A stretch of 64,000 nucleotides of DNA. Source: an uncultured Methanomassiliicoccaceae archaeon (GTDB lineage Archaea; Thermoplasmatota; Thermoplasmata; Methanomassiliicoccales; JACIVX01). The stretch spans positions 1,248-65,247 of the forward strand of contig CAZJDY010000015.1 in the NCBI GenBank assembly GCA_964544915.1, given 5' to 3'. The notes below the pieces were generated by a model. That model worked only from the letters and a program-made list of their open reading frames with translations. It did not search any database and was not told the DNA's origin. Below, in pieces: positions 16,933 through 34,532 of this stretch. Position 1 is the first letter of the stretch, and each line of letters begins with the position of its first letter. The position numbers and the translations under genes were made by a program.

Positions 16933-17056
16933 GGGCCTGTGGTGTAGCTTGGACATCACAGAGGCCTCCGGTGGTTTCTGTGCGAAGCCGAAGTGAGCCT
17001 CAGACTCGGGTTCGAATTCCCCAGCAAGGGGGACGAAAATCCCGACAGGCCCGCCA
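16933..17056 (+). tRNA. tRNA-Arg(CCG) with two putative introns and encoded CCA
   Basis: Hand fold: acceptor GGGCCTG/CAGGCCC, D arm GTGT..TCAC, anticodon stem GAGGC/GCCTC, loop CTCCGG..A (anticodon CCG at 16968-16970), T arm TCGGG-TTCGAAT-CCCGA, discriminator G, CCA. The fold requires removing 16972-16995 (position 37/38) and about 17018-17040 (T-loop/T-stem junction). Confidence 0.75.
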
Positions 17057-17057
17057 C
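17040..17057 (+). repeat. attL: 18-bp direct repeat TCCCGACAGGCCCGCCAC (3' end of the tRNA)
   Basis: Exact second copy at 34515-34532. Confidence 0.85.
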
Positions 17058-17159
17058 TGTCACCATCCAGCAAGTGCTAGATTTTCGTCAATAACGGCCT
17101 TCCGTGCAAATCGAAAGCTGCTGACAAACCCCTTTCTTTTTTCTTTTAATAAGCAGAGG

Positions 17160-17336
17160 ATGGGGAGAAGACGATCTACACAAACTCTCTCGATTATGGA
17201 TATTTTGTTGGAGCTGAGTAGTAGGGAGTATGCTGGCTATCCTAAGAAGATGTCTAACACCCCAATATCAGACATGTTAGACTTGAACATCTGGCTATCT
17301 CTAACATCGAATTTCGGAATAGAATTAAGGATGTGA
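17160..17336 (+). CDS. Small hypothetical protein (58 aa), possibly wHTH-like, coupled to the next HTH gene
   Basis: ATG 17160, in the distal part of ORF-track 16905-17336. MGRRRSTQTLSIMDILLELSSREYAGYPKKMSNTPISDMLDL... Its stop overlaps GTG 17333 of the next ORF. Confidence 0.35.
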   Translation: MGRRRSTQTLSIMDILLELSSREYAGYPKKMSNTPISDMLDLNIWLSLTSNFGIELRM

Positions 17337-17545
17337 AAAACATGGAATTGCCTCCCGGATGGGGAAATGTATGGAGCGCTAAGAAAGTTGATCGCATGCG
17401 GTTAGGTCCGTGCATAACCAGACTGTACCGGCTCGGACACTCAGAACGAGAGATCGCAAGAATACTCAAGATAAGTCCGTCAAGCGTGCATCGATATTTG
17501 GCACTGGTGAAAGCGTACGATGAATCGAGGAATACTTCAAAATGA
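17333..17545 (+). CDS. Small HTH DNA-binding protein (island regulator or excisionase candidate)
   Basis: 70 aa. C-terminal LGHSEREIARILKISPSSVHRYL is a typical helix-turn-helix. Confidence 0.6.
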   Translation: MKNMELPPGWGNVWSAKKVDRMRLGPCITRLYRLGHSEREIARILKISPSSVHRYLALVKAYDESRNTSK

Positions 17546-17567
17546 CCGCTATCGCTTCAAAAAGTGC

Positions 17568-17634
17568 GTTATTCGGTCGCTATCATTCGTTATTATCTGG
17601 ATGTGAAAAATGGTCGAAATAATGTCCGAATAAC
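17568..17634. repeat. Inverted repeat GTTATTCGG ... CCGAATAAC with related internal half-sites
   Basis: GTTATTCGG at 17568-17576 and CCGAATAAC at 17626-17634. ATTCGTTATTATC and CGAAATAATG lie between them. A+T-rich non-coding gap 17546-17890. Confidence 0.5.
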
Positions 17635-17989
17635 CCGTTCAATACCCATCTAGATAACGGACTAAAATGAAGCGAAGCAGCCGCCAAAGAACGATAATCT
17701 AACGAATGTAAAGAATTGAATGAGCCCCAATCAACTTACGGTTAGTGACATCATGTGACACGGTGCAGGCTATTCACCTTTTTTCTTTCTCGAGGAACAG
17801 GGGTGGGCAAATCTCGCGCTCGATTATGTCTTAACGATGAGCCGCATGGTAAGAAGGGAATGAATCCGAATCGTATCTTTAGCGTTTAGACGCTTGATCC
17901 AGCAACCTTATAAGCCGGTTAGCAAGATTAAGGTGAATCTTCCGCACGCTTGGCTGGAGGAATTGGGGGGATTGCTGATCCGAGACCGT

Positions 17990-18487
17990 GTGAGATCTCT
18001 GAAACCCATCATTGATGACCAGTCACGAGTTCTAATCCTTGGATCGATACCGAGTGCCATGTCCATAGAGAAACAGGAATACTACGCCAACAAGGGGAAC
18101 CACTTCTGGAGGGCTATCTACGCTATTTTTGATTCTGAACTAGACTCTTCATATGTTGAAAGGATTTCATTCCTGAGGGGAAAAGGAGTCGCACTCTGGG
18201 ATGTTCTCAAGGAGTGCAATAGAAAAGGAAGTGGCGACTTGACAATCACTGGGAGAGTGCCCAACGACTTTGCCTCCTTGTTTGAGGAGTATCCGGGAAT
18301 CAAGTTCGTGTTCTTCAACGGCAGGATGGCTGAAAAGTCGTTTGAGAAGCTAGTCAGACTGAATCCCAATTCAAGACTCAAACTCAAGAGACTTCCATCA
18401 ACTTCTTCAGCGAATGCCCGATTGACCATCGAGGCCAAGGTGGAAGAATGGCGAACTGTAAGAGAATGCTTAGAAAGGTGCGACTGA
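17990..18487 (+). CDS. UDG-superfamily DNA glycosylase, family-6-like (hypoxanthine/deoxyinosine DNA glycosylase)
   Basis: RVLILGSIPS...YYANKGNHFW...GVALWDV...LPSTSSANA matches the DNA-deoxyinosine glycosylase pattern as I recall it. I prefer GTG 17990; the longest ORF starts at TTG 17894. Confidence 0.7.
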   Translation: MRSLKPIIDDQSRVLILGSIPSAMSIEKQEYYANKGNHFWRAIYAIFDSELDSSYVERISFLRGKGVALWDVLKECNRKGSGDLTITGRVPNDFASLFEEYPGIKFVFFNGRMAEKSFEKLVRLNPNSRLKLKRLPSTSSANARLTIEAKVEEWRTVRECLERCD

Positions 18488-18751
18488 CCCGCCGAATCCG
18501 GAGCCAATGCCTCAGAAACAGAAGAACACATGTCATATGCGCCCACCCAGAGACCCTTCAGCAGACAGTCAACTTGTTTAATCCCTGAGAATTACGTCGA
18601 AAAGGTGGTTTGGAAAAGGCATTGCCTGAACATCAGCTTCTTCTCTATCTGATATTCTCTTCATGATGTAGTCTTTAATACTCATCTTACCTAATCTTGT
18701 CTTCTTGGTGTCAATAGTTGGTTGACGTACAGACTGTTTCTGACGCGCGTG

Positions 18752-19519
18752 ATGAAGGGGGCAAGCGGATTGGACCTTAGAGGCAAAACGCTGATCGTAA
18801 CAGGAGCTTCGAGGGGAATCGGTCGAGCTTTAGCTTTAGAACTGGCTCAAAATGGTGTCAACCTTGTCTTGAACTCCCGAAGCGAAGCACCCCTCGAGGA
18901 AGTGGCTACTGCTGCCCGAGGGAAAGATGTGAGCGTATTGACAGTAGTGGGCGATGCCGCGTTAGCCAGCAACTCCCGGCAGATGGTGAAAGCCGCGGTT
19001 GGCATTGGCGAATTCATTGGTTTCATTCACAACGCAGGAACTGCTCATCCAGGTCCATTCTTGTACGAACTACCTAAAGCCATGTTCGAGAATGTCTGGC
19101 GATCCAACGTGTTAGCTGGTTACCAGATCGCGCGCTTCTCCTATCCCGAGCTGCGCCGAAGGAAGAGCGGCTTAGCGGTCTTCTTTGGGTCTGGGGCCGC
19201 AGAGATGAACGTAGAAGGCATTGGAGCCTACTGCCTCTCCAAGGCCGCGGAAGAGCATTTGGCGAGACAACTCGCCGCTGAGGCTCCAGAAATCACTTGC
19301 TTCGTGTATCGACCTGGAGCTGTCGAGACTGAGATGCAGAAAGGTGGTCGGGAAGCAAAAGGCAGTGGAGCTAAAGGGTTACACCGATTCTTCGGAGAGT
19401 TGAAGGAGCGAGGAATCCTTCTAACTCCCGAAACAGCCGCACGAGCATTAGTGCGGATATTACAAAGAGACCCGCGCACCTTTCACGGTAGGATAGCTAC
19501 CTATGATGACGGATTGTGA
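18752..19519 (+). CDS. Short-chain dehydrogenase/reductase (SDR)
   Basis: KTLIVTGASRGIGRA Rossmann motif and YCLSKAA catalytic YxxxK. ATG 18752 preferred over TTG 18722. Confidence 0.85.
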   Translation: MKGASGLDLRGKTLIVTGASRGIGRALALELAQNGVNLVLNSRSEAPLEEVATAARGKDVSVLTVVGDAALASNSRQMVKAAVGIGEFIGFIHNAGTAHPGPFLYELPKAMFENVWRSNVLAGYQIARFSYPELRRRKSGLAVFFGSGAAEMNVEGIGAYCLSKAAEEHLARQLAAEAPEITCFVYRPGAVETEMQKGGREAKGSGAKGLHRFFGELKERGILLTPETAARALVRILQRDPRTFHGRIATYDDGL

Positions 19520-19789
19520 AAGTGGCGCGTGAATGCTAAGGGCTTTCTGCTCCTGTGCATGCGCTGACTACCGCCCATCGATTTGATTCGGCAGGAATTA
19601 CTCTTTAGTACTGAGTTTACCCAATCTAGTCTCTCGAGCGAACCAGTAGGCTTCGATAATCAGAACCGATTTTGAAGAACCTGAAGTAGGACTCCTCCTT
19701 TTTGCAGTAAGACCGCCAGAAGTCCGATGAAAGGGATTCTGGAGATTCGGACGAAGCTCATATCATAACAACTGGCGTAGAAGCCACCT

Positions 19790-20605
19790 CTATGGTGACC
19801 ACGTGAACATCCTAAACTCGCACAGCTCTTTGAACCCAAGTCTCTTGTAGATCGGGAAGCCCAATTCGCTCGCCTCGAGAACAGCAACATCATAGCCGGC
19901 TTCTTTTGCACGAATGAGAGGTTCGCGGGTCATCGCGGATCCTATGCCCTTCCTTCTCGCCCCGGTGAGTGTCGCGATATTGTAAATGCCGGCGACTTCC
20001 TCGTGAAGGACTAGAAGGGACATTGCGACAGGCTTCCCATCAAGGAACCCTAGGAACCAGCGGCGAGTCGGACTCGCGCCATAGCTCCTGATGAGACTCT
20101 CCCAACCTCCCCTGATGTCTTTTGGGACTTCAAACACTTCTGCTGATATATCGCTGCAACTCCCCAAGGACTTCGCGTCCTCGACTTGCTCAATCTCGAA
20201 ATCGGGAGGCAATGGTTCGCTGTTTACGTCTCTCAGATCGATAGCCATTCCCGGAGTCTTCGGTTCCGAGGCTAGACCCTGGCTCAATAGGAAGTTGCCA
20301 AGTGTCACTGGAGTGCTCGAGGGACCGAGAACCCATGTCATCGGAAGTTGAGCGCTTCTAAAGTATGTCATCGCCTCCTCAGCCCTTTTCGGGAGATTGC
20401 TGGCATTGAACCTTGGACCAAGAATGTAATTGAGCAAAGCCATACGAAGGCCTGTCGAGACGATGGTCATATCAGGCTCTCTACGCACGAATGAGCCCTG
20501 AAGGCCAGAACACAGGGATGTCAAGGCTTCATAGTGTGTTGTTTCAATTGTGCAAATCAACTCTTCCTCTGTAAACCTTCCCATCATAACGCGAAGGACT
20601 CCCAA
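19790..20605 (-). CDS. GNAT family N-acetyltransferase, two-domain type (paralog 1)
   Basis: 271 aa. C-terminal RRKGIGSAM...A...LY.RLGF acetyl-CoA-binding motif. Alignable along its whole length to ORF 31370-32167. Confidence 0.8.
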   Translation of the reverse strand: MGVLRVMMGRFTEEELICTIETTHYEALTSLCSGLQGSFVRREPDMTIVSTGLRMALLNYILGPRFNASNLPKRAEEAMTYFRSAQLPMTWVLGPSSTPVTLGNFLLSQGLASEPKTPGMAIDLRDVNSEPLPPDFEIEQVEDAKSLGSCSDISAEVFEVPKDIRGGWESLIRSYGASPTRRWFLGFLDGKPVAMSLLVLHEEVAGIYNIATLTGARRKGIGSAMTREPLIRAKEAGYDVAVLEASELGFPIYKRLGFKELCEFRMFTWSP

Positions 20606-20731
20606 ATTGCATTCTGTGGATGATTAGATAGTATTTTCGGTTTTGTCGTTCTCTCGAAAATGAAGTGGGCAAAGAAGTCCAGTTCCGCGCACTATCCGCA
20701 TATGGAACACAACACATGCGAAGAAACCTCT

Positions 20732-20757
20732 CCCCCATCTGCCGTCAGAAGCGTCAG
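20732..20757 (-). repeat. Island motif 1, copy A
   Basis: Plus strand: cccccatctgccgtcagaagcgtcag. Lies in the gap between the ICMT-like and GNAT-1 genes. Confidence 0.85.
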
Positions 20758-20780
20758 TCACGAAGTATGCGTGACCTTTC

Positions 20781-20820
20781 GGGATGCCGTGAGGTTCGGG
20801 CTGTGAGAGATTAGCTGAAC
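20781..20820 (-). repeat. Island motif 2, copy i
   Basis: Plus strand: gggatgccgtgaggttcgggctgtgagagattagctgaac. Confidence 0.7.
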
Positions 20821-20838
20821 ACTTTTCCGTTCTTCTTA

Positions 20839-21426
20839 TCAGAATTTCGGGATTCCTATCCATCTTGGGGTCCTATTCATGTATTCTCGGTATGCATTTC
20901 CATACTTTTGGAGGCAGGAACGTTCTTCAGAAACTATACCAGTATGCACTGGAATTAAGAAAACTGCGGTAATTAGCAGAAAAACCCAGGAAGCACATGC
21001 GATGCCTGTGCCGCCAAAGATCAAGAACATGCTAAAGTAGATAGGGTTTCTAGAAAAACGGTAGACCCCTTTGGTGACAGGTTTATCCACTGGAGTAGTG
21101 AAGAAATTTTGAACTGCTATAGTCTCGATAATCGCTCCCAGCAAATAGATGAGGAATCCAGCAAAGAACCAGACTGTCCCCAGTTCAAGCGGCAAGAAGA
21201 TGCTGTAAGCAATTAGAGCGATGAATAGAAAGGATATGATATTCGAGATTTTTTTCTCAGTCTCGTTGAGCGGCGCATCAGAACCTTTCTTCAATACCTC
21301 TTTGTCAATTAGCCATCCTGATAATAAAAAGGGCAATAAGTTTAAGAATGTCAAATAAAGCATGAAAATCCAAGCATTCCATAAGCCCAACTCAAAAGCT
21401 GGAATAAGCGACATAATCCTACCCAA
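20839..21426 (-). CDS. Isoprenylcysteine carboxyl / phospholipid methyltransferase-like membrane methyltransferase
   Basis: 195 aa, polytopic. GVYRFSRNPIYFSMF...EERSCLQKYGNAYREY is typical of the ICMT/PEMT family. Confidence 0.75.
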   Translation of the reverse strand: MGRIMSLIPAFELGLWNAWIFMLYLTFLNLLPFLLSGWLIDKEVLKKGSDAPLNETEKKISNIISFLFIALIAYSIFLPLELGTVWFFAGFLIYLLGAIIETIAVQNFFTTPVDKPVTKGVYRFSRNPIYFSMFLIFGGTGIACASWVFLLITAVFLIPVHTGIVSEERSCLQKYGNAYREYMNRTPRWIGIPKF

Positions 21427-21433
21427 GTCCGGA

Positions 21434-21931
21434 CTAGACCATGCGGTTCATGGTGTCTCTCGCGAATGCCCGAGCTTTCATGAGCCTAGCCTCGTCGGGT
21501 TGACCTTTACTGTTATGACTCTTTGCAAAAGTCCGAATTTTCTTATTAGTTGAGATTCTCATTATTAGCTCCAAACCCTTGGCTAGCTCCCCTTGGCAAT
21601 CGAAGAACCCTACTAGGTTCGCACCGGCAGCTGCTTGTTTGAACTTTGCCATCCATTCCGGGACTTCTGGTACATCTTCTGGGGCACAATGCGTCACGAA
21701 CAATGCTACCTTCCTTCCGCCCGTGCAATGTTTATCTAGGAATTCCTTTACCTTCTTGTCAGGTCCATATTGATGCGTGGGAAAGCCCAGGAATGAGATA
21801 TCATAAGCCCCGATATCCTGCACATCTTTAATCGGTCTGATCTCCTTCTCACCAGTTATCTCTCCATATATGGCTTCGGCTACCTTCTTGGTGTTGCCCG
21901 TCGACGACATGTATGCCACAAGCACTTTCAT
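21434..21931 (-). CDS. Flavodoxin
   Basis: MKVLVAYMSSTGNTKKVAEAI is an FMN phosphate-binding loop. 165 aa. Confidence 0.8.
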   Translation of the reverse strand: MKVLVAYMSSTGNTKKVAEAIYGEITGEKEIRPIKDVQDIGAYDISFLGFPTHQYGPDKKVKEFLDKHCTGGRKVALFVTHCAPEDVPEVPEWMAKFKQAAAGANLVGFFDCQGELAKGLELIMRISTNKKIRTFAKSHNSKGQPDEARLMKARAFARDTMNRMV

Positions 21932-21987
21932 TCCGTTGCCTCCAACTATTCTCCATTCGGGCGAGCATCCTTAAAACTTATGGCAGC

Positions 21988-22396: not shown

Positions 22397-22421
22397 CATT
22401 TACCTTTCCTTTTTTTTCCCT

Positions 22422-22450
22422 CCCCCCATCTGCCGTCAGAACCGTCAGAA
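22422..22450 (-). repeat. Island motif 1, copy B
   Basis: Plus strand: ccccccatctgccgtcagaaccgtcagaag. Lies 9 nt beyond the stop of the STAND gene. Confidence 0.9.
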
Positions 22451-22458
22451 GTGGCGGT

Positions 22459-24954: not shown

Positions 24955-24981
24955 CCTTCAGAACCGTCGGATGTGTCAGAA
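24955..24981 (-). repeat. Island motif 1, copy C (degenerate 5' part)
   Basis: Plus strand: ccttcagaaccgtcggatgtgtcagaa. Near-identical to the distal part of copy E. Confidence 0.65.
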
Positions 24982-25704: not shown

Positions 25705-25850
25705 GATATTCTTTTGTTACTTTACGCGAACTTTTTGTTTGTTTAATATCGCTTTATGTTATCTATAACTAACATCACATATATGAATCCTTTGACGAGA
25801 CTTCTACGAAACGAGTCCTTAGAAACCCCTTTCTTCTTTCTAGTTCTCTT

Positions 25851-25885
25851 TCCCCATCTGCCGTCAGAACCGTCAGAAATGTCAC
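25851..25885 (-). repeat. Island motif 1, copy D
   Basis: Plus strand: tccccatctgccgtcagaaccgtcagaaatgtcacc. Confidence 0.9.
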
Positions 25886-26021: not shown

Positions 26022-26576
26022 TTACTTCTTGAATTCTTTACCAATGGTCCAGCCTTTGGCGAGCTTTTCGCCGAGACAATAGTAGTTCCTGTCAGTCATC
26101 GTGAATAGGATCGGACGAAGTTTCGAGAGGTCCACTGCTGCATCTGTCATAACTTCCTCATCGCAATAGGTCGCAACGACCTTTCCGATGAACAGATCAT
26201 GATTGGGCATGTCAATTGTATCGATGAGCTCGCATTCCATAGAGACCGGACACTCTTCAATCATAGGAGCGGTCCCAAGTTTTCCGTAAAAAGTCTTGAA
26301 AAGAACAGACTTGTCTTCATCTTTCCCAGATACGATTCCACAATAATCAGTCACCTTTACCATATCCTCTTTGGGGATGTTGACGCTGAAGCACTTGTTC
26401 TCTCTTATGCCAATGTTCGTGTAGTGCTTCTTGTTCATGCTTAGTGAAATTGAACTGTGATCTGCAATGCCGACATGGGCCATTGTGATGTAGTTCGGCT
26501 TTCCTTCAACCAGCGCCCCCACAAGAACTATGGGTAAAGGATACAGGCAGTTCTTCGCCCCGATTTCTTTTTTCAT
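26022..26576 (-). CDS. Flavin reductase-like (FMN-binding split-barrel) protein
   Basis: MKKEIGAKNCLYPLPIVLVGA...NYITMAHVG. GGAGG 7 nt upstream of ATG 26576. Confidence 0.75.
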   Translation of the reverse strand: MKKEIGAKNCLYPLPIVLVGALVEGKPNYITMAHVGIADHSSISLSMNKKHYTNIGIRENKCFSVNIPKEDMVKVTDYCGIVSGKDEDKSVLFKTFYGKLGTAPMIEECPVSMECELIDTIDMPNHDLFIGKVVATYCDEEVMTDAAVDLSKLRPILFTMTDRNYYCLGEKLAKGWTIGKEFKK

Positions 26577-26658
26577 CCAAGTGACCTCCTTCAGGGTATT
26601 TTGCATAACATATATATTCTATTCGTTGACGATCCCGGTATGTTCGTCTTCCGGTCTT

Positions 26659-26696
26659 TCCCCATCTGCCGTCAGAACCGTCGGAAGTGTCAGAAG
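26659..26696 (-). repeat. Island motif 1, copy E (longest form)
   Basis: Plus strand: tccccatctgccgtcagaaccgtcggaagtgtcagaag. Minus-strand reading: CTTCTGACACTTCCGACGGTTCTGACGGCAGATGGGGA. Confidence 0.9.
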
Positions 26697-29180: not shown

Positions 29181-29184
29181 ACCT

Positions 29185-29976
29185 TCACCTCCTCTTCCTG
29201 AGCGCTTCCATTTCCACCCTGTGCTGTCTCTTGAACTTGGAGAAATCCCTGAGGGTTATGAACGGAACTGTGTACGATTTTATGTACGATCTGCCGCTGG
29301 GCCTTGCGTAGTGTGTGATAGGTATCTCCACGATTCTCATACCCTTGAGCGCGGCCAACGGGAGAATGAAGCGATGCAAGCCTCTGTAGCCCTCAGGATC
29401 GAACTGCATCGTGACAGCTTTCTCCCTTCGGAATGCCTTGAAGCCGCTGTTCTGGTCTTTGACCTTCAGTCCGAATCTTCTCTGTATGATGCGACGATTG
29501 TAAACGCTTGATATGAACTTCCTTATGAACGGATCGGTTCTTTGATGCCTCCAACCAGTGACGACATCATATCCCTCAGCGACTTTTTCAAGAAACAGCG
29601 TTATCTCTTTCGGTTCATACTGGCGATCCCCATCCATAATTATGATGACATCTCCTCTCGCTTCCTGGAACCCTGTTCTGATAGCGAAAGATCTTCCCTT
29701 GTTTACTTTGTGATGGATTGCTCTGACATTCTCGTGCCGTCTTGCTAGATCATCGCAGATCGCAGGGGAACGATCAACGCTGCCATCGTCAACGAGAACG
29801 ACCTCGCCATCAATCTTGTCAGATCTGTATACTTGAAGTATCGCCTCTGTCAGCGGCTCTATGTTATTCTCCTCGTCCTTTATCAGAAGCACTGTGCTGC
29901 ACTTCAGGCGAATCCCTCGGTCTTCACTGAGATTCCTGTGAATCAGTCGAAATTGACGGTTTGTGGCGTCCCTCAT
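29185..29976 (-). CDS. GT2 glycosyltransferase, polyprenol-phosphate sugar synthase-like (GtrB/DPM-like)
   Basis: VVLVDDGSVDRS...NKGRSFAIRTGF...IIIMDGDRQYEP is typical of the GT2 Dpm1/GtrB clade. Confidence 0.8.
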   Translation of the reverse strand: MRDATNRQFRLIHRNLSEDRGIRLKCSTVLLIKDEENNIEPLTEAILQVYRSDKIDGEVVLVDDGSVDRSPAICDDLARRHENVRAIHHKVNKGRSFAIRTGFQEARGDVIIIMDGDRQYEPKEITLFLEKVAEGYDVVTGWRHQRTDPFIRKFISSVYNRRIIQRRFGLKVKDQNSGFKAFRREKAVTMQFDPEGYRGLHRFILPLAALKGMRIVEIPITHYARPSGRSYIKSYTVPFITLRDFSKFKRQHRVEMEALRKRR

Positions 29977-30952
29977 AGAAGATCATCGCAAGGACCCCTA
30001 CTGGGATTGAAAGCCAGATGGACGTGAGAGCACTGAGGATTCCTGCAGTGGCGGCTATGTCATAGTTAATTCCACTGGCAGTGAAGATGGCGGAGGAAAC
30101 GACGACGTTGCTGCTTCCCGCCGATAGAAACACCGCGCTGAGAGACGCGATGCTTGCCGTTGCGACGACCGCAACGAGACTCGCCTGTACGCCAAGCGCC
30201 TCCATGATAAGGAATAGACGGACAATTTCGTTCGTCCAGATTACGATTGTAAGGGCGCCAGCATATGCAATCAATCTTCGTTTACCCTCTATCTTTGTCG
30301 AGTGGATTGCAGAGTTGAATGAGCCAACGAATCCCTTGATGCTATTCGAAAGTTTTCTTCCTCTCTCCCCCTTTGCTATCATCCGTACGGTTTTAGCCAT
30401 AAGATTGCCTGATTTTGCGAGGAACTTGGGTATTGCCAGCATATAGATGATGAGGAAATTCACAATCACCATGACTACAACAGTGGCGATTAGCTGATTC
30501 CTCATGTCCTCCACCAAGAAGGTAAGGAGGAGCATCAGGCTTGTAACGCACAGAATCGTCAATACTATAAAATCCATTAGTCTCTCCGACACAACGGTCG
30601 CAAGACAGGTGCCGATGCCGACACTCTCCTTAGCCCTCATCCCGTATACTCGACTTGCCTCTCCTACCACCCTTCCAGGAGTGACGTTGTTCAGGGCCTG
30701 AGAGAATGAGAATGTGGCAAATATCGAGGCGAAACGTATCTTATTCCCGGTACTGCGCATCAGCAACCCCCAGCGAAAGCTCTTCACCACGAGATTGATG
30801 AAGTAGAGTAATACGACAGAAGCGATGATAACAAGGTCAACTCCCACGAGGGCGTCTCCGACAGACTCAGGATTTGAAATCACGATCGTTGCGGCTATCA
30901 GTCCAACCGAGATGGCAATGTTGACCTTGGTGCTTCCGTTTATCTTCCTCAA
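29924..30952 (-). CDS. Flippase-like / lysylphosphatidylglycerol-synthase TM-domain (UPF0104) membrane protein
   Basis: 342 aa, about 8 helices. FRWGLLMR...TPGRVGE-like motif (NVTPGRVVGEASRV). Confidence 0.6.
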   Translation of the reverse strand: MRKINGSTKVNIAISVGLIAATIVISNPESVGDALVGVDLVIIASVVLLYFINLVVKSFRWGLLMRSTGNKIRFASIFATFSFSQALNNVTPGRVVGEASRVYGMRAKESVGIGTCLATVVSERLMDFIVLTILCVTSLMLLLTFLVEDMRNQLIATVVVMVIVNFLIIYMLAIPKFLAKSGNLMAKTVRMIAKGERGRKLSNSIKGFVGSFNSAIHSTKIEGKRRLIAYAGALTIVIWTNEIVRLFLIMEALGVQASLVAVVATASIASLSAVFLSAGSSNVVVSSAIFTASGINYDIAATAGILSALTSIWLSIPVGVLAMIFYEGRHKPSISTDSQESQ

Positions 30953-31052
30953 CGATTACTCAACTCCTCCCCTCAAAGTTGACTTCTTGACAGAAACGAC
31001 CTAGAATTGGCAAAAGGAGGATAAATAGTGTACCTAGCAGCGGTCAACCTCC

Positions 31053-31090
31053 TCTCCATCTGCCACCAGGACCGCTGGAAAGTGTCAGAG
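31053..31090 (-). repeat. Island motif 1, copy F (degenerate)
   Basis: Plus strand: ctctccatctgccaccaggaccgctggaaagtgtcagagg. Confidence 0.6.
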
Positions 31091-31270
31091 GAATGGATCG
31101 GGCGAAGCCCGAACGCTTTCGATCCGCTTGTTATCTGAATTGGGAAGAATGTGGGGCTCGCCCGAGACCGAACTCTGCACAATCCAGATGGGCAAAATCA
31201 AAATGCAATTCTCGCACCTTAACGCATGACCAGCCCATGAAACCCCTTCCCCCTTTTTCTCCTGATCTGT

Positions 31271-31299
31271 AACCCCATCTGCCGTCAGAACCGTCAAGG
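31271..31299 (-). repeat. Island motif 1, copy G
   Basis: Plus strand: aaccccatctgccgtcagaaccgtcaagg. Confidence 0.9.
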
Positions 31300-31302
31300 C
31301 TG

Positions 31303-31321
31303 CCGGAATCGGTGATTCCGG
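31303..31321. repeat. Perfect 8-bp-arm palindrome CCGGAATC-GGT-GATTCCGG abutting motif copy G
   Basis: Read directly. Lies about 50 nt beyond the stop of GNAT paralog 2 on the minus strand. Confidence 0.6.
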
Positions 31322-31369
31322 GCGAGCCGCGCACGATTCACTACCTGGTAGCCGCCAATGGATTTGCAT

Positions 31370-32167
31370 TCATGGCGACCACGTGTATGTCCTAAACTCG
31401 CAAAGCTCTCTGAACCCAAGTTTTCTGTAGATCGGGAGACCCATTTCGCTCGCCTCGAGAACGGCAACTTCGTAGCCAGCATTCTTGGCGATTTGAAGTG
31501 GTTCCCGAGTGATCGCGGTTCCTATGCCCTTCCTTCTTGCCTCAGGGATAGTCGCGATATTGTATACGCCGGCGACGTCCTCGTGAAGGACCAGAAGGGA
31601 TACTGCAACGGGCTCTCCGTTAAGAAACCCCAGAAACCAGCGACGCGTCGAACTCATGCCAAAGCTATCGATGAGTTCTCTCCAGCCGTCCCTGATGTTT
31701 CCAGGGATTTCGAAAACGTCTGCCATTATATCGCTGCAAGTTCTCAAGGACACCCGATCCTCGACCTGCTGAATCTCGAGTCCAGAAGGCAATGGTTCGC
31801 GGTTCACAGTCCTTAGGTCGATGGCCATTCCTGGGGTCGTCCTTTCTGAGACAAACCCCCGATTCAATAAGAAGTCGTCGAGCTCTGCTAGAGTGCTTGA
31901 GGGACCCAGAACCCATCTCATTGGAAGTCCAGTGTTCTTGAAATGTGACATCGCCACCTCGGCCCTTTCCGAGAAATCACTTGAGCCGAATCTCGGGCCG
32001 AGAACGCCGTTCAGTAAGGCCATGGGAAGACCGCTCGAACATACGATCATGTCTGGTTCCCTACGCAAGAATGAACCTGGAATGCCAGTGCAGAGAGCTA
32101 TGATAGCTTCGTAGTAGGTCCTCTCAATAGCTCGAATCAACTCTTTCTCTTCGAATCCTCCTATCAT
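31370..32167 (-). CDS. GNAT family N-acetyltransferase, two-domain type (paralog 2)
   Basis: 265 aa. RRKGIGTAI...LGF motif. Alignable along its full length to 19790-20605. Confidence 0.8.
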   Translation of the reverse strand: MIGGFEEKELIRAIERTYYEAIIALCTGIPGSFLRREPDMIVCSSGLPMALLNGVLGPRFGSSDFSERAEVAMSHFKNTGLPMRWVLGPSSTLAELDDFLLNRGFVSERTTPGMAIDLRTVNREPLPSGLEIQQVEDRVSLRTCSDIMADVFEIPGNIRDGWRELIDSFGMSSTRRWFLGFLNGEPVAVSLLVLHEDVAGVYNIATIPEARRKGIGTAITREPLQIAKNAGYEVAVLEASEMGLPIYRKLGFRELCEFRTYTWSP

Positions 32168-32313
32168 AGCACTCAGAACTCTCAGATTACATGCTGCAAA
32201 CGGTTAGATAGTGTTTTGGTTTTGTCGCTCTGTCGAAAATGAGAAGGAGAAAGCAGTCCAGCTTCGCACAGTAGCCCCTTATGTGACCCAGGGACAAAAG
32301 CAAAGAGGTCTCT

Positions 32314-32342
32314 CTCCCCTTCTGCCGTCAGAACTGTCAAGG
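32314..32342 (-). repeat. Island motif 1, copy H
   Basis: Plus strand: ctccccttctgccgtcagaactgtcaagg. Confidence 0.8.
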
Positions 32343-32502
32343 AGGAGCGGGTTGAGTGGGATTCTTACCCGCGATTCTGACTAGCAAGAGGTCGATTTGT
32401 ACCGTTTACGGTACAAAGCACCTGTTTGAAGGTATGAAAGATAGACCAAACCTCTTCCATTTTTCCCTTTTGAAATACCCTTGGTATGTCCAGATGATAG
32501 CT

Positions 32503-33066
32503 TCAGGGCGAGCTGAGGATGGTGGCGGCGAACTCATCCACCTTTCCCTGCCAGCCTTCCTCCAGCGGCCCCTTCATCTTCTCCCCTGAAACTAAGAATA
32601 TCTTGTCGGCAACTTTCACCAGCCCCTTCCCCCTCAAGATCTCATCCAGGATAGGTATGGTCTTCCTCCAGCGGTTGAGTCCTTCCTCCGTCGGCATCAG
32701 CCCGGTCTTCTTATCAGGCACCGCGTCACCGTGGGTCGCGAATATGGCACACTTTGTTCCCGACGGCAGTGAGACCTTCTTGATGAAACGGCGCATGCTC
32801 CCTAGTGGCCCGCCGAATCGCGTGGGTGACCCAAAGACGTACAGGTCGGCGAGGGGCAGCTCCTTAGGCTTCGACTCATCGATATGATGCACGTTCACCT
32901 GATGGCCTTTGGTCTCCATGACCCGCCGTAACTCCTCGGCGACCTTCGCTCCGTTCCTGAATTTCGAGGCGTGATATAGCTCAATCTTGATGAGGATCCC
33001 CCGGCCATGGCGAATGCAACTAATCCCTATTAATGATTTCTTGCAAGCCGGCTCCAAAACCTTCAA
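32503..33066 (-). CDS. Flavodoxin-like fold protein
   Basis: ILIKIELYHASKFRNGAKVAEEL...LYVFGSPTRFG pattern. The true start may be downstream of ORF-track 33066. Confidence 0.6.
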   Translation of the reverse strand: MKVLEPACKKSLIGISCIRHGRGILIKIELYHASKFRNGAKVAEELRRVMETKGHQVNVHHIDESKPKELPLADLYVFGSPTRFGGPLGSMRRFIKKVSLPSGTKCAIFATHGDAVPDKKTGLMPTEEGLNRWRKTIPILDEILRGKGLVKVADKIFLVSGEKMKGPLEEGWQGKVDEFAATILSSP

Positions 33067-33093
33067 GTCTGTCGCGCTGCAATCTCCGAATCT

Positions 33094-33615
33094 GTGTGTG
33101 GTAGGTTCACGTTGATATTCGACTCGGAGTTCTTCAGGAGGTTCGCTCTACAATCAAGGAACGTCGAGATCTCCACAAGATACAATATCGCGCCGACGCA
33201 GGAGGTTCCGATAATCGTCAATGACGGCAGGAACAAGGTCTTCATGATGAGGTTCGGTCTTATCCCCTCCTGGTCGAAGGAAAAGAAAACGAGATACAGC
33301 CTCATCAACGCAAGGGCCGAGACCGTCACAAAGAAGCCGATGTTCCGCCGACTTCTCGCCAAGCATCGCTGCCTAGTTCCTACGACCGGCTTCTACGAAT
33401 GGAAGAAGGTCGGCAGTCGCAAGACCCCTCATTTCATTCGCGTGAAGTATGAGAACTACTTCGCACTCGCCGGACTCTGGGACCATTGGAAGGATCCGAA
33501 AGGAGAGGAGATCAAGTCCTTCACCATCATAACAACCAAGGCAAATGATGTCCTGAGCGAAATACATCCCCGGATGCCGGTGATACTCAGGAAAGAAGAT
33601 GAGGTATCTGGGTAG
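33094..33615 (+). CDS. SRAP (SOS-response-associated peptidase / abasic-site processing) domain protein, C-terminally short
   Basis: MCGRFTL (Cys2), INARAET, GFYEWKK and EIHPRMPVIL are SRAP catalytic motifs. It ends at 173 aa, 17 nt inside the integrase ORF. Confidence 0.8.
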   Translation: MCGRFTLIFDSEFFRRFALQSRNVEISTRYNIAPTQEVPIIVNDGRNKVFMMRFGLIPSWSKEKKTRYSLINARAETVTKKPMFRRLLAKHRCLVPTTGFYEWKKVGSRKTPHFIRVKYENYFALAGLWDHWKDPKGEEIKSFTIITTKANDVLSEIHPRMPVILRKEDEVSG

Positions 33616-34507
33616 TGTGTTCGAAGGCTTGAAGTCGCAAGGACTCATAAGCACGACCGACCCCAGGCACATAGGGCGGCGGGAGATCCAAGAACTCCTC
33701 TGTTATTTCAGGAAGAAAGGACTGGACGTCTCGACCCAGGATACCCACTTGAAGTATCTCAAAGCCATCCTGAAGACCTTCAAGAACCATGTGATCGATG
33801 ACATGGAATCCGAGGGGGTCAGGTTCCCGAAGCCCATTAAGAAGCCGATTTTTGCCTTGTCGATCGAGGAGCTGACCAAGATGTTCGCCTCGGTTAAGGA
33901 AATGGACCGGTGGGAGGGGTCGTTGGCGCGGGGGATAATCGCGCTCCATTTCGCTACCGGAGTTCGACCGGGGGAGCTACGAATGGCCCATGTTGAGGAT
34001 TTGAATCTAGAAGAGGGGACCTTTTTCGTTCGATTCCCTAAAGGACTGGGCAGATGGGCTTCACCGGAAAAGATCCCGCTCATTCGGGGCGACGTGGCAC
34101 ATCTACTGCGGCAATATCTCGAAGAAAGGGAAGAGTATCTGAAAGCGCGCGGCATCGACAAGGCGATAGCTCTATTCCCCAGTATCCGTAGCAAAACTGG
34201 ATTCTATTCCCGCCAAAGGTTCCAGGACATCAAGGAAGACATTGAGAGAATGTCAGGGGTCAAGTTCAAGTTGAAGGACTTCAGGCCAACCCTGGCAAGT
34301 ATTACGGTAGCAGGTGATCTCAGTCGATTGCCTGCCGTCTCGGCGCAACTGAGGCACTTGGACCCAAAGACAACGACGGATTTCTATGCGAGAATCGAAC
34401 TGAACACCGTCACTCGGCAGCTTCGGGACGTGTGGAAGGAAAACCCGACAACAATGTACAATACACCCGTTATTGAGAAAGAATATGACATATCTGGCTA
34501 TCAGTAA
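33599..34507 (+). CDS. Tyrosine recombinase / integrase
   Basis: 302 aa. Box I HFATGVRPGEL. C-terminal LRHLDPKTTTDFYARI with a candidate nucleophilic Tyr. N-terminal SAM-like core-binding helices (THLKYLKAILKTF). Confidence 0.85.
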   Translation: MRYLGSVFEGLKSQGLISTTDPRHIGRREIQELLCYFRKKGLDVSTQDTHLKYLKAILKTFKNHVIDDMESEGVRFPKPIKKPIFALSIEELTKMFASVKEMDRWEGSLARGIIALHFATGVRPGELRMAHVEDLNLEEGTFFVRFPKGLGRWASPEKIPLIRGDVAHLLRQYLEEREEYLKARGIDKAIALFPSIRSKTGFYSRQRFQDIKEDIERMSGVKFKLKDFRPTLASITVAGDLSRLPAVSAQLRHLDPKTTTDFYARIELNTVTRQLRDVWKENPTTMYNTPVIEKEYDISGYQ

Positions 34508-34514
34508 TGGACAT

Positions 34515-34532
34515 TCCCGACAGGCCCGCCAC
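34515..34532 (+). repeat. attR: 18-bp direct repeat TCCCGACAGGCCCGCCAC
   Basis: Exact copy of 17040-17057. Starts 8 nt after the integrase stop codon. Confidence 0.85.

What the first reader, a model, noticed from the sequence alone, without database searches (positions are those of the whole stretch)
17040..34532. ~17.5-kb integrated element in tRNA-Arg(CCG) bounded by an exact 18-bp direct repeat
I find TCCCGACAGGCCCGCCAC twice. One copy is 17040-17057, which is the T-stem 3' strand, acceptor 3' strand and CCA of the tRNA. The other is 34515-34532, 8 nt after the stop of a tyrosine recombinase (33599-34507). The interval is visibly A+T-richer than the flanks: my spot counts are 26/60 G+C in line 21001-21060 versus 41/60 in line 39001-39060. 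It contains only accessory-type genes, mostly on one strand. I recognise no capsid, terminase, replication or conjugation genes, so the element class (provirus, integrated plasmid or mobilisable island) is open.
Basis: partly seen in the sequence, partly recalled or inferred. Interest (0 to 1): 0.7.

Follow-up and report, generated by a model that had tools for sequence, protein, structure and literature searches.

The report
Decayed tRNA-integrated island holding a cassette array
A 17.5-kb block of foreign accessory genes sits in the last exon of an intron-split tRNA-Arg gene of an uncultured methanogen-related archaeon; the insertion itself is ordinary, but inside it the genes are arranged as a one-directional array of swappable modules separated by a conserved short DNA motif that does not match any described cassette system.

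Summary
The 18-bp repeat is exact at 17040-17057 and 34515-34532, and chance expects 0.03 copies. The left copy is the 3' exon, plus one base, of a real tRNA-Arg(CCG). ARAGORN and Rfam miss this tRNA because it carries two introns. The closest reference genome (a Methanomassiliicoccales MAG, about 78% nt identity) has one att copy and no insert. About 45 Thermoplasmata species keep this tRNA directly next to the right-flank gene. The island has 48.9% G+C against 54-55% in the flanks.

It is neither a provirus nor a self-replicating plasmid, because no virion, replication or transfer genes were found. The integrase lacks a conserved N-terminal ~68 aa, lost in a deletion that also truncated the neighbouring SRAP gene. 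A related strain carries a full-length copy at the same site. A 15-codon tail of a second integrase abuts the tRNA.

The new result is inside the island. Between 20.7 and 32.4 kb there are seven same-strand copies of a 35-43-nt motif with the core GACRGTTCTGACGGCAGAWGGGG. The same core occurs in 91 metagenome contigs as one-directional arrays (92 of 95 neighbouring copies co-oriented), often beside tRNA genes. The cargo is very diverse and flanks are exchanged exactly at the core. The motif is not attC-like and is unlikely to be a promoter. Its recombinase is unknown.

The parts
16933..17056 (+). tRNA-Arg(CCG) gene with two introns. Exons are 16933-16971, 16996-17016 and 17040-17056. The anticodon-loop intron is 16972-16995 and the T-loop (59/60) intron is 17017-17039.
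   Evidence: The spliced sequence is called as a 77-nt tRNA-Arg(CCG) by ARAGORN, and the T-arm folds as helix-bulge-helix-bulge-helix. An intron-less orthologue exists in L021. The T-loop intron is present in 34 of 45 orthologues.
17040..17057 (+). attL core: the tRNA 3' exon plus one base
   Evidence: Exact 18-bp repeat. It is the overlap between the two alignment blocks to the empty site in L009.
17060..17107 (-). Probable remnant (15 codons plus stop) of a second integrase, in the family's usual position with its stop 2 nt from the reverse-complemented CCA end of the tRNA
   Evidence: The translation ...ARKAVIDENLALAGW* resembles the family C-termini ...P[VF]I[ED]x6[ST]GY[AGQS]*, which abut tRNA CCA ends in L090, L091 and L183-L188. 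This is a short match, so it is probable, not proven.
17333..17545 (+). 70-aa HTH protein (resolvase-type HTH_7), a candidate excision or regulatory factor next to attL
   Evidence: Pfam HTH_7 at 6.8e-6. The assigned role is inference.
17894..19519 (+). Block of a DNA-deoxyinosine glycosylase (UDG superfamily, 17894-18487) and a short-chain dehydrogenase (18722-19519)
   Evidence: NCBIfam TIGR04274, 162.6 bits against a cutoff of 80. Pfam adh_short. The block occurs at 94% identity inside another array in L166.
19790..20605 (-). GNAT acetyltransferase module, a paralogue of 31370-32167
   Evidence: Pfam. The internal repeat 19792-20216 matches 31372-31796 at 77-83%.
20733..20757 (-). Junction motif, copy 1
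   Evidence: nhmmer 23 bits
20839..22399 (-). Module with a 114-aa ORF (22055-22399), a flavodoxin (21434-21931) and a PEMT/ICMT-like membrane methyltransferase (20839-21426)
   Evidence: Pfam. The block occurs at 98% identity in L134 behind a different upstream module.
22420..22458 (-). Junction motif, copy 2
   Evidence: nhmmer 47 bits
22459..24888 (-). 809-aa STAND-type ATPase (AAA_16 plus TPR)
   Evidence: Pfam. No convincing PADLOC match. A similar 844-aa protein sits in the L129 array.
24958..24980 (-). Junction motif, copy 3 (degenerate)
   Evidence: nhmmer 17.6 bits
25070..25704 (-). Module with a DUF2178 membrane protein (25261-25704) and an XRE-type HTH_3 regulator (25070-25345)
   Evidence: Pfam
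25847..25884 (-). Junction motif, copy 4
   Evidence: nhmmer 47 bits
25887..26003 (-). 3' remnant of a zinc-ribbon gene (...CPYCGSALVVSDIEKFLSSIL*), a scar of module replacement
   Evidence: Shared with L107 and L164, where L164 has the long ORF
26022..26606 (-). Flavin reductase module
   Evidence: Pfam Flavin_Reduct. The module occurs at 93-94% identity in three different contexts (L092/L159 and L133). Homology starts inside the motif core and ends about 28 nt after the stop.
26655..26695 (-). Junction motif, copy 5
   Evidence: nhmmer 51 bits
26866..30952 (-). Glycan-modification module: flippase-like membrane protein (29924-30952), polyprenol-phosphate-sugar-type GT2 (29185-29976), NAD-dependent epimerase/dehydratase (28233-29168) and a GT87-like membrane glycosyltransferase (26866-28095)
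   Evidence: Pfam. NCBIfam TIGR00374 flippase-like, and GT2 resembling ArnC, PgfS and AglJ.
31272..31308 (-). Junction motif, copy 6
   Evidence: nhmmer 36 bits
31370..32167 (-). GNAT acetyltransferase module
   Evidence: Pfam
32311..32484 (-). Junction motif copy 7 (32311-32340) plus a ~140-nt conserved junction block that ends in a degenerate tRNA-His-like 3' fragment
   Evidence: nhmmer 33 bits. Member of the 23-member junction family. The block is shared with 14 or more metagenome contigs.
32503..33066 (-). Flavodoxin-like protein
   Evidence: Pfam Flavodoxin_5, below the cutoff
33094..33615 (+). SRAP (abasic-site sensor peptidase) gene, 3'-truncated
   Evidence: Pfam SRAP covers profile positions 1-175 of 214. 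The L158 homologue continues for 48 more residues.
33593..34507 (+). Tyrosine integrase, 5'-truncated. Homology starts at residue 69 of the 372-aa form and the ORF runs from the ATG at 33599.
   Evidence: tblastn with P0001 gives 94% identity over residues 69-372 only. Homologues are about 370 aa. The deletion junction shows microhomology.
34515..34532 (+). attR core: the displaced copy of the tRNA 3' exon

Best explanation
This is a composite genomic island that can no longer move on its own.

Shown: it entered by tyrosine-recombinase site-specific recombination into the 3' exon of an intron-containing tRNA-Arg(CCG) gene of an uncultured Methanomassiliicoccales archaeon. The element carried its own copy of the last 18 bases, so the tRNA was regenerated (attL) and a displaced copy was left at the far end (attR). 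The integrase belongs to a family normally found in compact 5-10-kb elements with the layout small ORFs, then a 456-723-aa protein, then the integrase, sitting beside a tRNA. In the window that backbone is gone. One integrase survives only as a ~15-codon tail abutting the tRNA. The other has lost its conserved N-terminal ~68 residues in a microhomology deletion that also clipped the adjacent SRAP gene.

Inferred: the island probably cannot excise by itself. It could still be moved in trans by the full-length integrase seen at the same site in a related strain.

Shown: the interior (20.7-32.4 kb) is a one-directional array of modules. These comprise two GNATs, a flavodoxin/methyltransferase set, a STAND ATPase, an HTH/membrane pair, a flavin reductase and a four-gene surface-glycan modification set. 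Each module is bounded by a 35-43-nt motif made of 2-3 tandem TTCTGACGG units plus CAGATGGGGAGAG. In metagenomes this motif marks the point where neighbouring modules are exchanged.

Inferred: the motif is a double-strand recombination site at which modules are inserted, lost and swapped, so the island works as a reservoir of accessory genes. The enzyme acting on the motif is not identified.
For: Integration:
- The 18-bp repeat is exact.
- The tRNA is verified after splicing.
- L009 is an empty site, with the two alignment blocks overlapping by exactly the att core.
- The tRNA-AcnX adjacency holds in about 45 species.
- The composition contrast is significant.

Non-autonomy:
- No virion, replication or transfer families were hit.
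- The integrase homology starts at residue 69.
- The missing segment is conserved in the family, with nearly invariant G40, P43, F44, R55, G57, T63, E66, R69 and K70.
- SRAP is truncated at the same breakpoint.
- A full-length integrase (94% identical) sits at the same attR and flank in L089.
- Relatives have the compact layout and abut tRNA-Ala, -Pro and -Val. L090's large protein has a weak P4-primase match.

Array:
- Seven same-strand motif copies lie inside the island and none in the 46 kb of flanks.
- 91 metagenome contigs carry the exact 23-nt core.
- Neighbouring copies are co-oriented in 92 of 95 pairs, p = 7e-24.
- Median module length is 1.1 kb.
- The cargo spans 110 Pfam families in 95 proteins.
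- Window modules recur in other contexts at 93-98% identity.
- Flanks are exchanged exactly at the core.
- Arrays start beside tRNA genes in L113, L121, L146, L168 and L179.
- Junctions contain integrase-3'-end-like and tRNA-3'-like fragments.
Against: - No excised circle and no empty site was seen in the same population. Every contig crossing attR is occupied.
- The truncated integrase keeps its catalytic residues and an in-frame ATG, so residual activity is not excluded.
- The motif is absent from all nine loci that carry full-length members of the integrase family. Only two distant integrase fragments occur in the 91 motif contigs. So the link between this integrase family and the motif is unproven.
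- The tRNA-like fragments at junctions are heterogeneous and do not match the tRNA at the head of the array. Simple serial integration at one att site does not predict this.
- The window array points the opposite way to its tRNA, unlike the five metagenomic array heads.
- Exchange at a 23-43-nt identical core could be homologous rather than site-specific recombination.
- Some shuffled joins in short-read metagenome contigs could be assembly chimeras at the repeat.
Confidence: 0.8

Rival explanations
1. The 17.5-kb element is still a functional mobilisable unit. It excises as one circle through the two 18-bp cores, using the shortened integrase or a full-length copy supplied in trans.
For: The att cores are perfect. 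The catalytic residues R193, the LRH box and Y333 are retained, and an in-frame ATG exists. A full-length variant occupies the same site in another sample. One contig, L008, ends exactly at the last base of attL, as expected if reads diverge there.
Against: The conserved N-terminal module is missing. No contig with an attP or attB junction was recovered. The L008 break could equally reflect a variant island with a different left end.
Confidence: 0.2
2. The element is a defective provirus or an integrated plasmid whose hallmark genes are too divergent to recognise.
For: Three small ORFs have no family assignment (22055-22399, 20624-20863, 31085-31369). Relatives of the integrase sit beside large proteins that mostly lack Pfam matches.
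Against: Fifteen of 18 main ORFs have clear metabolic, envelope or regulatory assignments. There is no ORF of the 456-723-aa class next to the integrase. PHROGs gave no structural or packaging hits. No integrase relatives were found in IMG/VR.
Confidence: 0.04
3. The repeated motif is a regulatory element, meaning an operator, promoter or 5' leader of an island regulon controlled by the island's HTH or STAND proteins. It is not a recombination site.
For: In the window all seven copies lie upstream of and co-oriented with the next gene. The tandem 9-nt units look like protein-binding repeats. The island encodes HTH_3, HTH_7 and STAND proteins.
Against: In metagenomic arrays the longest ORF in a module is co-oriented with the motif in only 44 of 77 cases. 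Distances to start codons range from 24 to about 390 nt. A 23-nt core that is invariant across 91 contigs is unusually rigid for an operator. Flank exchange maps exactly to the core.
Confidence: 0.15
4. The array is an integron or a CALIN (a cluster of attC sites lacking an integrase).
For: It has a polar array of short modules. A tyrosine recombinase sits at one end and is transcribed divergently from the window's array. GNAT-type and other accessory cargo is typical of cassettes. Integrons have been reported in Archaea (PMC9668308).
Against: There is no attC-like single-strand folding at the junctions (six of seven z-scores fall between -1.7 and +0.2). Rfam gave no hit in the window. The integrase scores 44.9 bits against the 220-bit cutoff of the XerA/integron-integrase model. 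ORF orientation within modules is mixed.
Confidence: 0.03
5. The motif is a dispersed lineage-specific repeat of the REP or MITE type. Module shuffling is a by-product of homologous recombination between its copies, with no dedicated machinery.
For: The exchange point cannot be resolved within the identical core. No recombinase is consistently linked to the arrays.
Against: Co-orientation in 92 of 95 pairs is not expected for randomly inserting repeats. There are no copies in the 46 kb of core flanks or in about 1.3 Mb of related Thermoplasmata loci. The motif associates with tRNA-proximal islands and with att-like and integrase-remnant sequences.
Confidence: 0.2

Closest known systems
tDNA-integrated genomic islands as catalogued by Islander (PMC4383910). 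Among archaeal elements, this is the class in which the integrase gene stays intact on integration (pNOB8-type, from my own knowledge of She et al.).
   Same: A tyrosine integrase lies inside the island near one end. An intact tRNA sits at one end and a displaced 3' fragment forms a direct repeat at the other. An empty site exists in a relative, and the composition is foreign. The att core lies 7 nt beyond the integrase stop, so integration does not split the gene.
   Different: The target is the 3' exon of a tRNA with a non-canonical T-loop intron, and the identity block stops exactly at the intron/exon border. The integrase is truncated. The interior is a motif-delimited array. Sequence-level membership in the pNOB8 integrase family was not tested.
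Tycheposon-seeded genomic islands of Prochlorococcus (bioRxiv 10.1101/2020.12.28.424599)
   Same: Both are islands next to tRNA genes that carry metabolic cargo. Both show repeated insertions with older material pushed inward, and fragmented integrases and partial tRNAs scattered through the island (one search compared).
   Different: Here every junction carries an additional, highly conserved non-tRNA motif. The tRNA-like fragments differ from the head tRNA. Modules are much smaller (median 1.1 kb). The host is an archaeon. Tycheposon hallmark genes were not looked for.
Integrons and CALINs, including the archaeal integrons of Ghaly et al. 2022 (PMC9668308)
   Same: Both are polar arrays of small, very diverse accessory-gene modules separated by a conserved short site, with module exchange at that site.
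   Different: There is no attC hairpin, no IntI-type integrase and mixed ORF orientation. The site is built from direct 9-nt repeats, and the arrays are anchored at tRNA genes.
CIMEs and accretion-mobilisation of integrative elements in streptococci (reviewed in PMC5704250)
   Same: Both involve integrase-less units flanked by att-type sites that accumulate in tandem beside an integration site and could be moved by an integrase supplied in trans.
   Different: CIME arrays repeat one att sequence. Here the att-like cores are heterogeneous and a separate invariant motif is the common element. There is no conjugation context.
Three-component periplasmic glycan modification (Gtr-like: polyprenol-phosphate-sugar synthase, flippase and GT-C transferase, carried by temperate phages). 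Recalled from my own knowledge, not tested here.
   Same: The largest module encodes a GT2 of the polyprenol-phosphate-sugar type, a flippase-like membrane protein, a GT87-like membrane glycosyltransferase and an epimerase. A mobile element carrying surface-glycan modification genes is a common theme.
   Different: The substrates and acceptor are unknown, the host is archaeal, and no functional test was done.

Membership tests
tRNA-integrated genomic island (Islander-type) | An intact tRNA gene at one end and a displaced 3' fragment as a direct repeat at the other | tested here: met
tRNA-integrated genomic island (Islander-type) | A tyrosine integrase gene inside the island near an end | tested here: met
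   Pfam Phage_integrase above the cutoff, but the gene is 5'-truncated
tRNA-integrated genomic island (Islander-type) | An uninterrupted site in a related genome | tested here: met
   L009 alignment blocks overlap by exactly the 18-bp core. The tRNA is adjacent to AcnX in about 45 species.
Provirus | Capsid, portal, terminase or other virion hallmark genes | tested here: not met
   No such Pfam or PHROGs hits. No integrase relatives in IMG/VR.
Integrated plasmid of the same integrase family (small ORFs, a 456-723-aa protein, then the integrase) | A large Rep-like or primase-like gene immediately upstream of the integrase | tested here: not met
   Present in L090, L091, L183, L184 and L187. In the window a truncated SRAP gene occupies that position.
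Integrated plasmid of the same integrase family | The integrase stop codon abuts the CCA end of a complete tRNA in convergent orientation | tested here: not met
   Not met for the main integrase, which is followed by a direct-orientation fragment. Met only by the 15-codon remnant at attL.
SSV1-type archaeal integrase (gene split on integration) | attP lies inside the integrase ORF, so integration partitions the gene | tested here: not met
   The att core starts 8 nt after the last base of the stop codon. The truncation is at the other (5') end and is caused by a deletion.
Integron / CALIN | attC sites with a conserved single-strand hairpin structure | tested here: not met
   Folding z-scores fall between -1.7 and +0.2 for six of seven junctions. 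No Rfam hit.
Integron / CALIN | An IntI-type integrase | tested here: not met
   44.9 bits against the 220-bit cutoff for NF040815. The IntI-specific domain was not examined.
Integron / CALIN | A polar array of small cassettes with diverse cargo | tested here: met
Tycheposon-like or accretion island | Modules separated by partial copies of the island's own tRNA | tested here: not met
   Junction fragments are tRNA-like but do not match the head tRNA. His-like tails occur in arrays headed by tRNA-Arg. There is no third Arg core in the window.
Tycheposon-like or accretion island | Fragmented integrases scattered in the island | tested here: met
   A remnant at attL. The IEIRKRMSGYA-type junction remnants are enriched about 5-fold over controls. 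Partial integrases in L104 and L168.
Archaeal bulge-helix-bulge tRNA intron | Two 3-nt bulges separated by a 4-bp helix at the splice sites, and a canonical tRNA after removal | tested here: met
   The layout is TCGGG-TTCG-AAT-hairpin-CGAA-AAT-CCCGA. It is conserved with a varying hairpin in 34 of 45 orthologues. The anticodon-loop intron has one C-A mismatch in its central helix (my reading of the sequence).

The most novel reading that the evidence does not exclude
The 35-43-nt motif may define a previously undescribed archaeal gene-cassette system. In this reading, one-directional arrays seeded at tRNA genes in wetland, peat and sediment Methanomassiliicoccales-like archaea gain, lose and reorder 0.3-3-kb modules by site-specific recombination. 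The site would be a double-stranded, non-palindromic sequence built from tandem 9-nt units. It would play the role of integron attC/attI but be mechanistically and evolutionarily distinct, perhaps derived from the attP arm of a tRNA-targeting integrative element. The window island would be one such array captured between two att cores.
Probability: 0.3. Interest if true: 0.8.

Novelty: new variant of a known kind. Interest (0 to 1): 0.6.

Why it matters
The insertion itself is a standard tRNA-targeted island, though it is a well-documented one for Methanomassiliicoccales, an order with few characterised mobile elements.

Two points go further. First, the att core coincides exactly with the 3' exon of a tRNA that carries a conserved T-loop intron. 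So this non-canonical intron does not protect the gene from integration, which bears on the old idea that tRNA introns shield genes from integrative elements.

Second, the island exposes a widespread, polar, motif-delimited module array with very diverse metabolic cargo and exchange points at an invariant 23-nt core. If a dedicated recombinase acts there, it would be a new route for accessory-gene flow in anaerobic archaea that matter for methane cycling. It would also be a second, non-attC solution to the cassette-platform problem. The hypothesis can be tested directly with existing read sets and a simple recombination assay.

Tried and rejected
- ARAGORN and Rfam on the raw window found no tRNA. 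This was resolved by manual splicing, so it is not evidence against the tRNA.
- I first guessed a Thermoproteales host from the multi-intron tRNA. Flanking-gene relatives showed Methanomassiliicoccales/Thermoplasmata instead.
- I looked for an empty site or an excised circle in the same population through exact-protein look-ups of both flanks and the integrase. Only occupied junctions were found. Two further look-ups of island proteins added nothing.
- An integrase search in IMG/VR found no relatives. A motif search in IMG/VR and in 91 loci held at that time found none.
- PADLOC on the STAND protein and the small ORFs gave no credible defence-system assignment.
- Motif as an arm-type site of this integrase family: rejected as a general rule, because nine loci with full-length family members lack it.
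- Motif as promoter or leader: disfavoured by the mixed ORF orientation.
- Motif junctions as attC: rejected.
- Junction tRNA-like fragments as copies of the head tRNA, as expected for simple serial integration: rejected.
- An intact T-arm upstream of the motif is rare, found in 3 of 76 contexts. A strict integrase-C-terminus signature is present in only 6 of 147 junctions, although this is about 5-fold enriched.
- A decayed third att core that would separate two elements in the window was not found.
- No PDB relative of the integrase by sequence.

Full report
**Observation.** The 18-mer TCCCGACAGGCCCGCCAC occurs exactly twice in the window, at 17040-17057 and 34515-34532. Both copies are on the + strand, and no further copy appears with up to two mismatches. 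Dinucleotide-preserving shuffles expect 0.03 copies. ARAGORN and an Rfam gathering-threshold scan report no tRNA anywhere in the window, which at first seems to undercut the finding.

Reading 16933-17056 shows an acceptor stem (GGGCCTG...CAGGCCC-G-CCA) interrupted by two insertions. I removed 16972-16995 (24 nt, after position 37) and 17017-17039 (23 nt, between positions 59 and 60). The result is a 77-nt sequence that ARAGORN calls tRNA-Arg(CCG) with a canonical cloverleaf. Removing only the T-loop insertion lets ARAGORN find the gene with a standard anticodon-loop intron. The T-arm region reads TCGGG-TTCG-AAT-[TCCCC...GGGGA]-CGAA-AAT-CCCGA. That is a helix, a 3-nt bulge, a 4-bp helix, a 3-nt bulge and a helix, which is the archaeal splicing motif (and the sequence itself). 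The left repeat therefore begins exactly at the first base of the 3' exon and runs through CCA plus one base.

**Host and empty site.** The flanks encode archaeal core functions. On the left are an H+-pyrophosphatase, Rpb7/RpoE', Spt4, S24e and S27ae. On the right are the two AcnX subunits, a 1420-aa class-I tRNA-synthetase-like protein and FEN1. Near-identical contigs (99.5-99.9%) exist in Logan assemblies of several ERR43347xx and ERR38043xx runs.

A scan of one genome per species with the right-flank AcnX protein returned Methanomassiliicoccales and other Thermoplasmata. The best hit, L009 (MAG OWC_0007), has 80% aa identity. In about 45 of these loci the orthologous tRNA lies directly upstream of AcnX, within ~100 nt in most. 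L009 aligns to the window in two blocks, L009 2379-9919 with window 9476-17057 and L009 9902-21167 with window 34515-45788. The blocks overlap by exactly the 18-bp core. This is the expected signature of an uninterrupted site. The insert is 17058-34514 (17,457 bp) plus one core copy. The same alignment shows that the low-GC 533-aa ORF left of the tRNA (15164-16765) is conserved and is not part of the island.

**Composition.** The island has 48.9% G+C, against 53.9% in the left flank and 55.4% in the right. One-kb windows differ with Mann-Whitney p = 3e-8. GC3 is 0.46-0.58 for most island genes against 0.69-0.77 for flank genes. The right-hand 3.5 kb of the island is closer to the host (52.2% G+C, GC3 0.64-0.73).

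**Gene content.** Pfam, NCBIfam, PHROGs and PADLOC give the following, from left to right:
- a small HTH_7 protein
- a DNA-deoxyinosine glycosylase (above the NCBIfam cutoff)
- a short-chain dehydrogenase
- a GNAT
- a PEMT/ICMT-like methyltransferase, a flavodoxin and a 114-aa unknown
- an 809-aa AAA_16+TPR STAND ATPase
- an XRE-type HTH with a DUF2178 membrane protein
- a flavin reductase
- a four-gene set: a GT87-like membrane glycosyltransferase, an NAD-dependent epimerase/dehydratase, a polyprenol-phosphate-sugar-type GT2 and a flippase-like protein
- a second GNAT
- a flavodoxin-like protein
- SRAP
- the integrase

Nothing resembles a capsid, portal, terminase, replication initiator, partition or transfer protein. 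The four-gene set resembles a three-component surface-glycan modification pathway. That is an inference from the family names, not a tested function.

**The integrase is truncated.** Its homologues in the 5.8-billion-protein collection are 353-397 aa. The closest, P0001 (94% identical), is 372 aa. tblastn of P0001 against the window aligns residues 69-372 only, starting at 33593, and the first 68 residues match nowhere. In a 16-member alignment the missing part contains a conserved block (R/K-LGR-Y/F-PF ... ERRxGT ... EEERKLRYL), whereas the catalytic Arg, the LRH box and the Tyr are retained.

The upstream SRAP ORF covers only profile positions 1-175 of 214. A homologue in L158 continues for 48 more residues. 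The three sequences share a short AGGAAAGRAGNTGA-like microhomology at the joint. So one deletion removed the SRAP 3' end, the integrase 5' end and whatever lay between them.

P0001 itself lies on a contig (L089, a different sample) with the same attR and the same right flank but different upstream genes. An intact-integrase variant of the island therefore occupies the same site in a related strain.

**What the integrase family normally looks like.** Six further contexts (L090, L091, L183, L184-186, L187-188) share one layout: a few small ORFs, a 456-723-aa protein, then the integrase. One of these large proteins has a weak P4-family primase match, and one has a precomputed hit to a family named after a Methanothermobacter plasmid gene. 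The integrase stop codon lies 0-5 nt from the reverse-complemented CCA end of a complete tRNA (Ala-TGC, Pro-TGG, Pro-GGG, Val-CAC). These are compact, plasmid-like integrative elements.

The window's main integrase departs from this layout. It is followed by a direct-orientation 3' fragment at the end distal to the tRNA. However, on the minus strand at attL an ORF tail ...ARKAVIDENLALAGW* stops 2 nt before the reverse-complemented tRNA end. This is the canonical position, and its spacing resembles the family C-terminus. I read it as a probable remnant of a second integrase, so the island is probably composite. No third att core was found, so the history cannot be reconstructed.

**The internal array.** Repeat finding revealed CCCCATCTGCCGTCAGAACCGTCAG at six or seven places between 20.7 and 32.4 kb. 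All are on the same strand and all lie in gaps between gene blocks. There are none elsewhere in the window. On the coding strand the element reads (TTCTGACAC)TTCTGACGGTTCTGACGGCAGATGGGGAGAG.

The 23-nt core GACRGTTCTGACGGCAGAWGGGG has exact matches in 91 JGI metagenome contigs. Most of these share only the motif region with the window. Several carry single window modules in other surroundings: the flavin reductase at 93-94%, the 114aa-flavodoxin-PEMT block at 98% and the glycosylase-SDR block at 94%.

A profile search finds 244 copies in 97 sources, typically several per contig and up to seven. It finds none above noise in about 1.3 Mb of related Thermoplasmata loci. Further properties of the arrays:
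- Adjacent copies are co-oriented in 92 of 95 pairs, p = 7e-24.
- Spacing has a median of 1.1 kb, with a 10-90% range of 0.45-3.4 kb.
- Ninety-five non-redundant array ORFs hit 110 Pfam families, none in more than three proteins, and no recombinase recurs.
- Identical upstream flanks are joined to up to four different downstream sequences and vice versa, with the switch always inside the roughly 30-nt conserved core.
- An alignment of one module in three contexts shows homology beginning inside the core and ending about 28 nt after the stop codon.

**What the motif is not.** It is unlikely to be a promoter or leader, because the longest ORF in a module is co-oriented with it in only 44 of 77 cases. 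It is not an attC. Single-strand folding of the seven window junctions is unremarkable (six z-scores between -1.7 and +0.2), whereas archaeal integrons described so far have canonical folded attCs (PMC9668308). It is not a general feature of the integrase family, being absent from all nine full-length family loci. Its strong polarity and its restriction to islands argue against a REP- or MITE-type dispersed repeat.

**What surrounds the motif.** Arrays start beside tRNA genes and point the same way in five contigs. Four have tRNA-Arg(TCG). One has tRNA-His, with the motif 21 nt after the CCA. One of them has a divergent integrase fragment between the tRNA and the array.

Junctions upstream of the motif are heterogeneous, with 79 singletons among 148. 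Two families stand out.
- One family (24 members, itself heterogeneous) includes junctions that read ...IEIRKRMSGYA, which matches the integrase family's C-terminal signature, fused to a direct tRNA T-arm and acceptor tail. The strict peptide signature is about 5-fold enriched over controls but is present in only 6 of 147 junctions.
- The other (23 members) is a ~130-nt block that ends in a tRNA-His-like 3' end followed by TTCTCTAAATCGATAA. The window's junction at 32311-32484 belongs to this family.

The shortest "empty" unit (L120 4220-4401, 182 nt) consists of the motif, a purine-rich tract, a GGGTTT block, an integrase-3'-end-like remnant, a tRNA-3'-like core and the next motif. So each junction resembles an attP-type region with no cargo. 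The tRNA-like fragments do not match the tRNA at the head of the same array. Simple serial integration at one att site does not explain this, and it remains unexplained.

**Interpretation.** The following are shown:
- site-specific insertion into the tRNA 3' exon
- an empty site in a relative
- foreign composition
- absence of virus, plasmid and transfer hallmarks
- truncation of the integrase and of SRAP by one deletion
- a polar motif array whose core is an exchange point in metagenomes

The following are inferred:
- The island is no longer self-mobile.
- It could be mobilised in trans.
- The array grows and is reshuffled by site-specific recombination at the motif.
- The junction structure derives from attP regions of small integrative elements.

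The nearest described analogue for the array is the tycheposon-seeded island of Prochlorococcus, with serial insertions at a tRNA and scattered integrase and tRNA fragments. Next come integrons/CALINs and streptococcal CIME accretion. None of them has an invariant non-tRNA junction motif built of direct repeats.

**Caveats.**
- ORFs are mechanical calls.
- The metagenome contigs are short-read assemblies, so some shuffled joins could be chimeric. Several contigs end at the motif, as expected for a repeat.
- The enzyme acting on the motif is unknown.
- No attP or attB junction from the source population was seen.
- One contig (L008) ends exactly at the last base of attL. This hints at heterogeneity there but could reflect a variant island rather than an empty site.

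**Verdict.** As an integration event it is a new member of a known kind. The array it contains is, as far as I could find in the searchable literature, an undescribed variant of cassette or accretion islands, and it deserves follow-up.

Noticed in passing
window 17017-17039; loci L009-L086: The non-canonical T-loop (59/60) intron of tRNA-Arg(CCG) is present in 34 of 45 orthologues across Thermoplasmata. The TTCG-AAN ... CGAA-ANT splice-site frame is constant, while the inner hairpin changes sequence but stays paired. Eleven species have no intron and six have only the T-loop intron. Because of this intron, ARAGORN and Rfam both miss the gene.
   Followed up: partly
window 36615-40877 (-): A 1420-aa ORF combines class-I aminoacyl-tRNA-synthetase domains (tRNA-synt_1, Anticodon_1, DUF5915) with zinc-ribbon, HHH_5 and DUF835 hits. 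This is an unusually long fusion for an Ile/Val/Leu-type synthetase (precomputed Pfam list).
   Followed up: no
window 15164-16765 (-): A 533-aa ORF with no Pfam hit and island-like composition (47.8% G+C, GC3 0.51) sits immediately left of the tRNA. It is nevertheless conserved at the same place in the 78%-identical relative L009. It may be an older acquisition.
   Followed up: partly
L124 17-720 matches window 704-1 (89%): In a related metagenome contig, motif copies lie 1.3-3 kb beyond the homologue of the window's left edge. A second motif array may therefore lie just outside the window start.
   Followed up: no
window 17121-17172: About 65-115 nt inside attL there is a minus-strand copy of the purine-rich/GGGGTTTG block that usually follows the motif. 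There is also a plus-strand half-motif, GCAGAGGATGGGGAGAAG. Its relation to the array and to the integrase remnant is unclear.
   Followed up: partly
window 20773-20831, 21978-22017, 22331-22406: Three partial copies of the 5' end of the 114-aa ORF (83% identical) are scattered near motif copies. The same sequence (GGTTCAGCTCATCTCTCAGAGCCCGAACCTCAC...) recurs after motifs in metagenome contigs with frameshifts. This suggests DNA-level rather than protein-level conservation.
   Followed up: partly
L091 104-135, 461-492, 11106-11137: A relative of the integrase sits in an element bounded by three copies of the tRNA-Pro(TGG) 3' end. This implies a ~10.6-kb element plus a 357-bp tandem remnant. 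Its cargo includes two URO-D-family methyltransferase-like genes and DUF2099.
   Followed up: partly
L187 7410-9347 and L188 26-1963: ARAGORN reports a tRNA-Val with an 1845-nt intron next to the genuine tRNA-Val that abuts the integrase. This is most likely a displaced partial tRNA copy (an att repeat) being stitched to other sequence, which would mark the far end of that element.
   Followed up: no
L008 (ERR4334735), end corresponds to window 17057: A Logan contig stops exactly at the last base of attL. This suggests that reads diverge at that point in that sample, because of either an empty site or a variant island.
   Followed up: partly
window 19792-20216 and 31372-31796: The two GNAT genes of the island are paralogues (77-83% nt identity) and each follows a motif copy. 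Module duplication within one array therefore occurs.
   Followed up: partly
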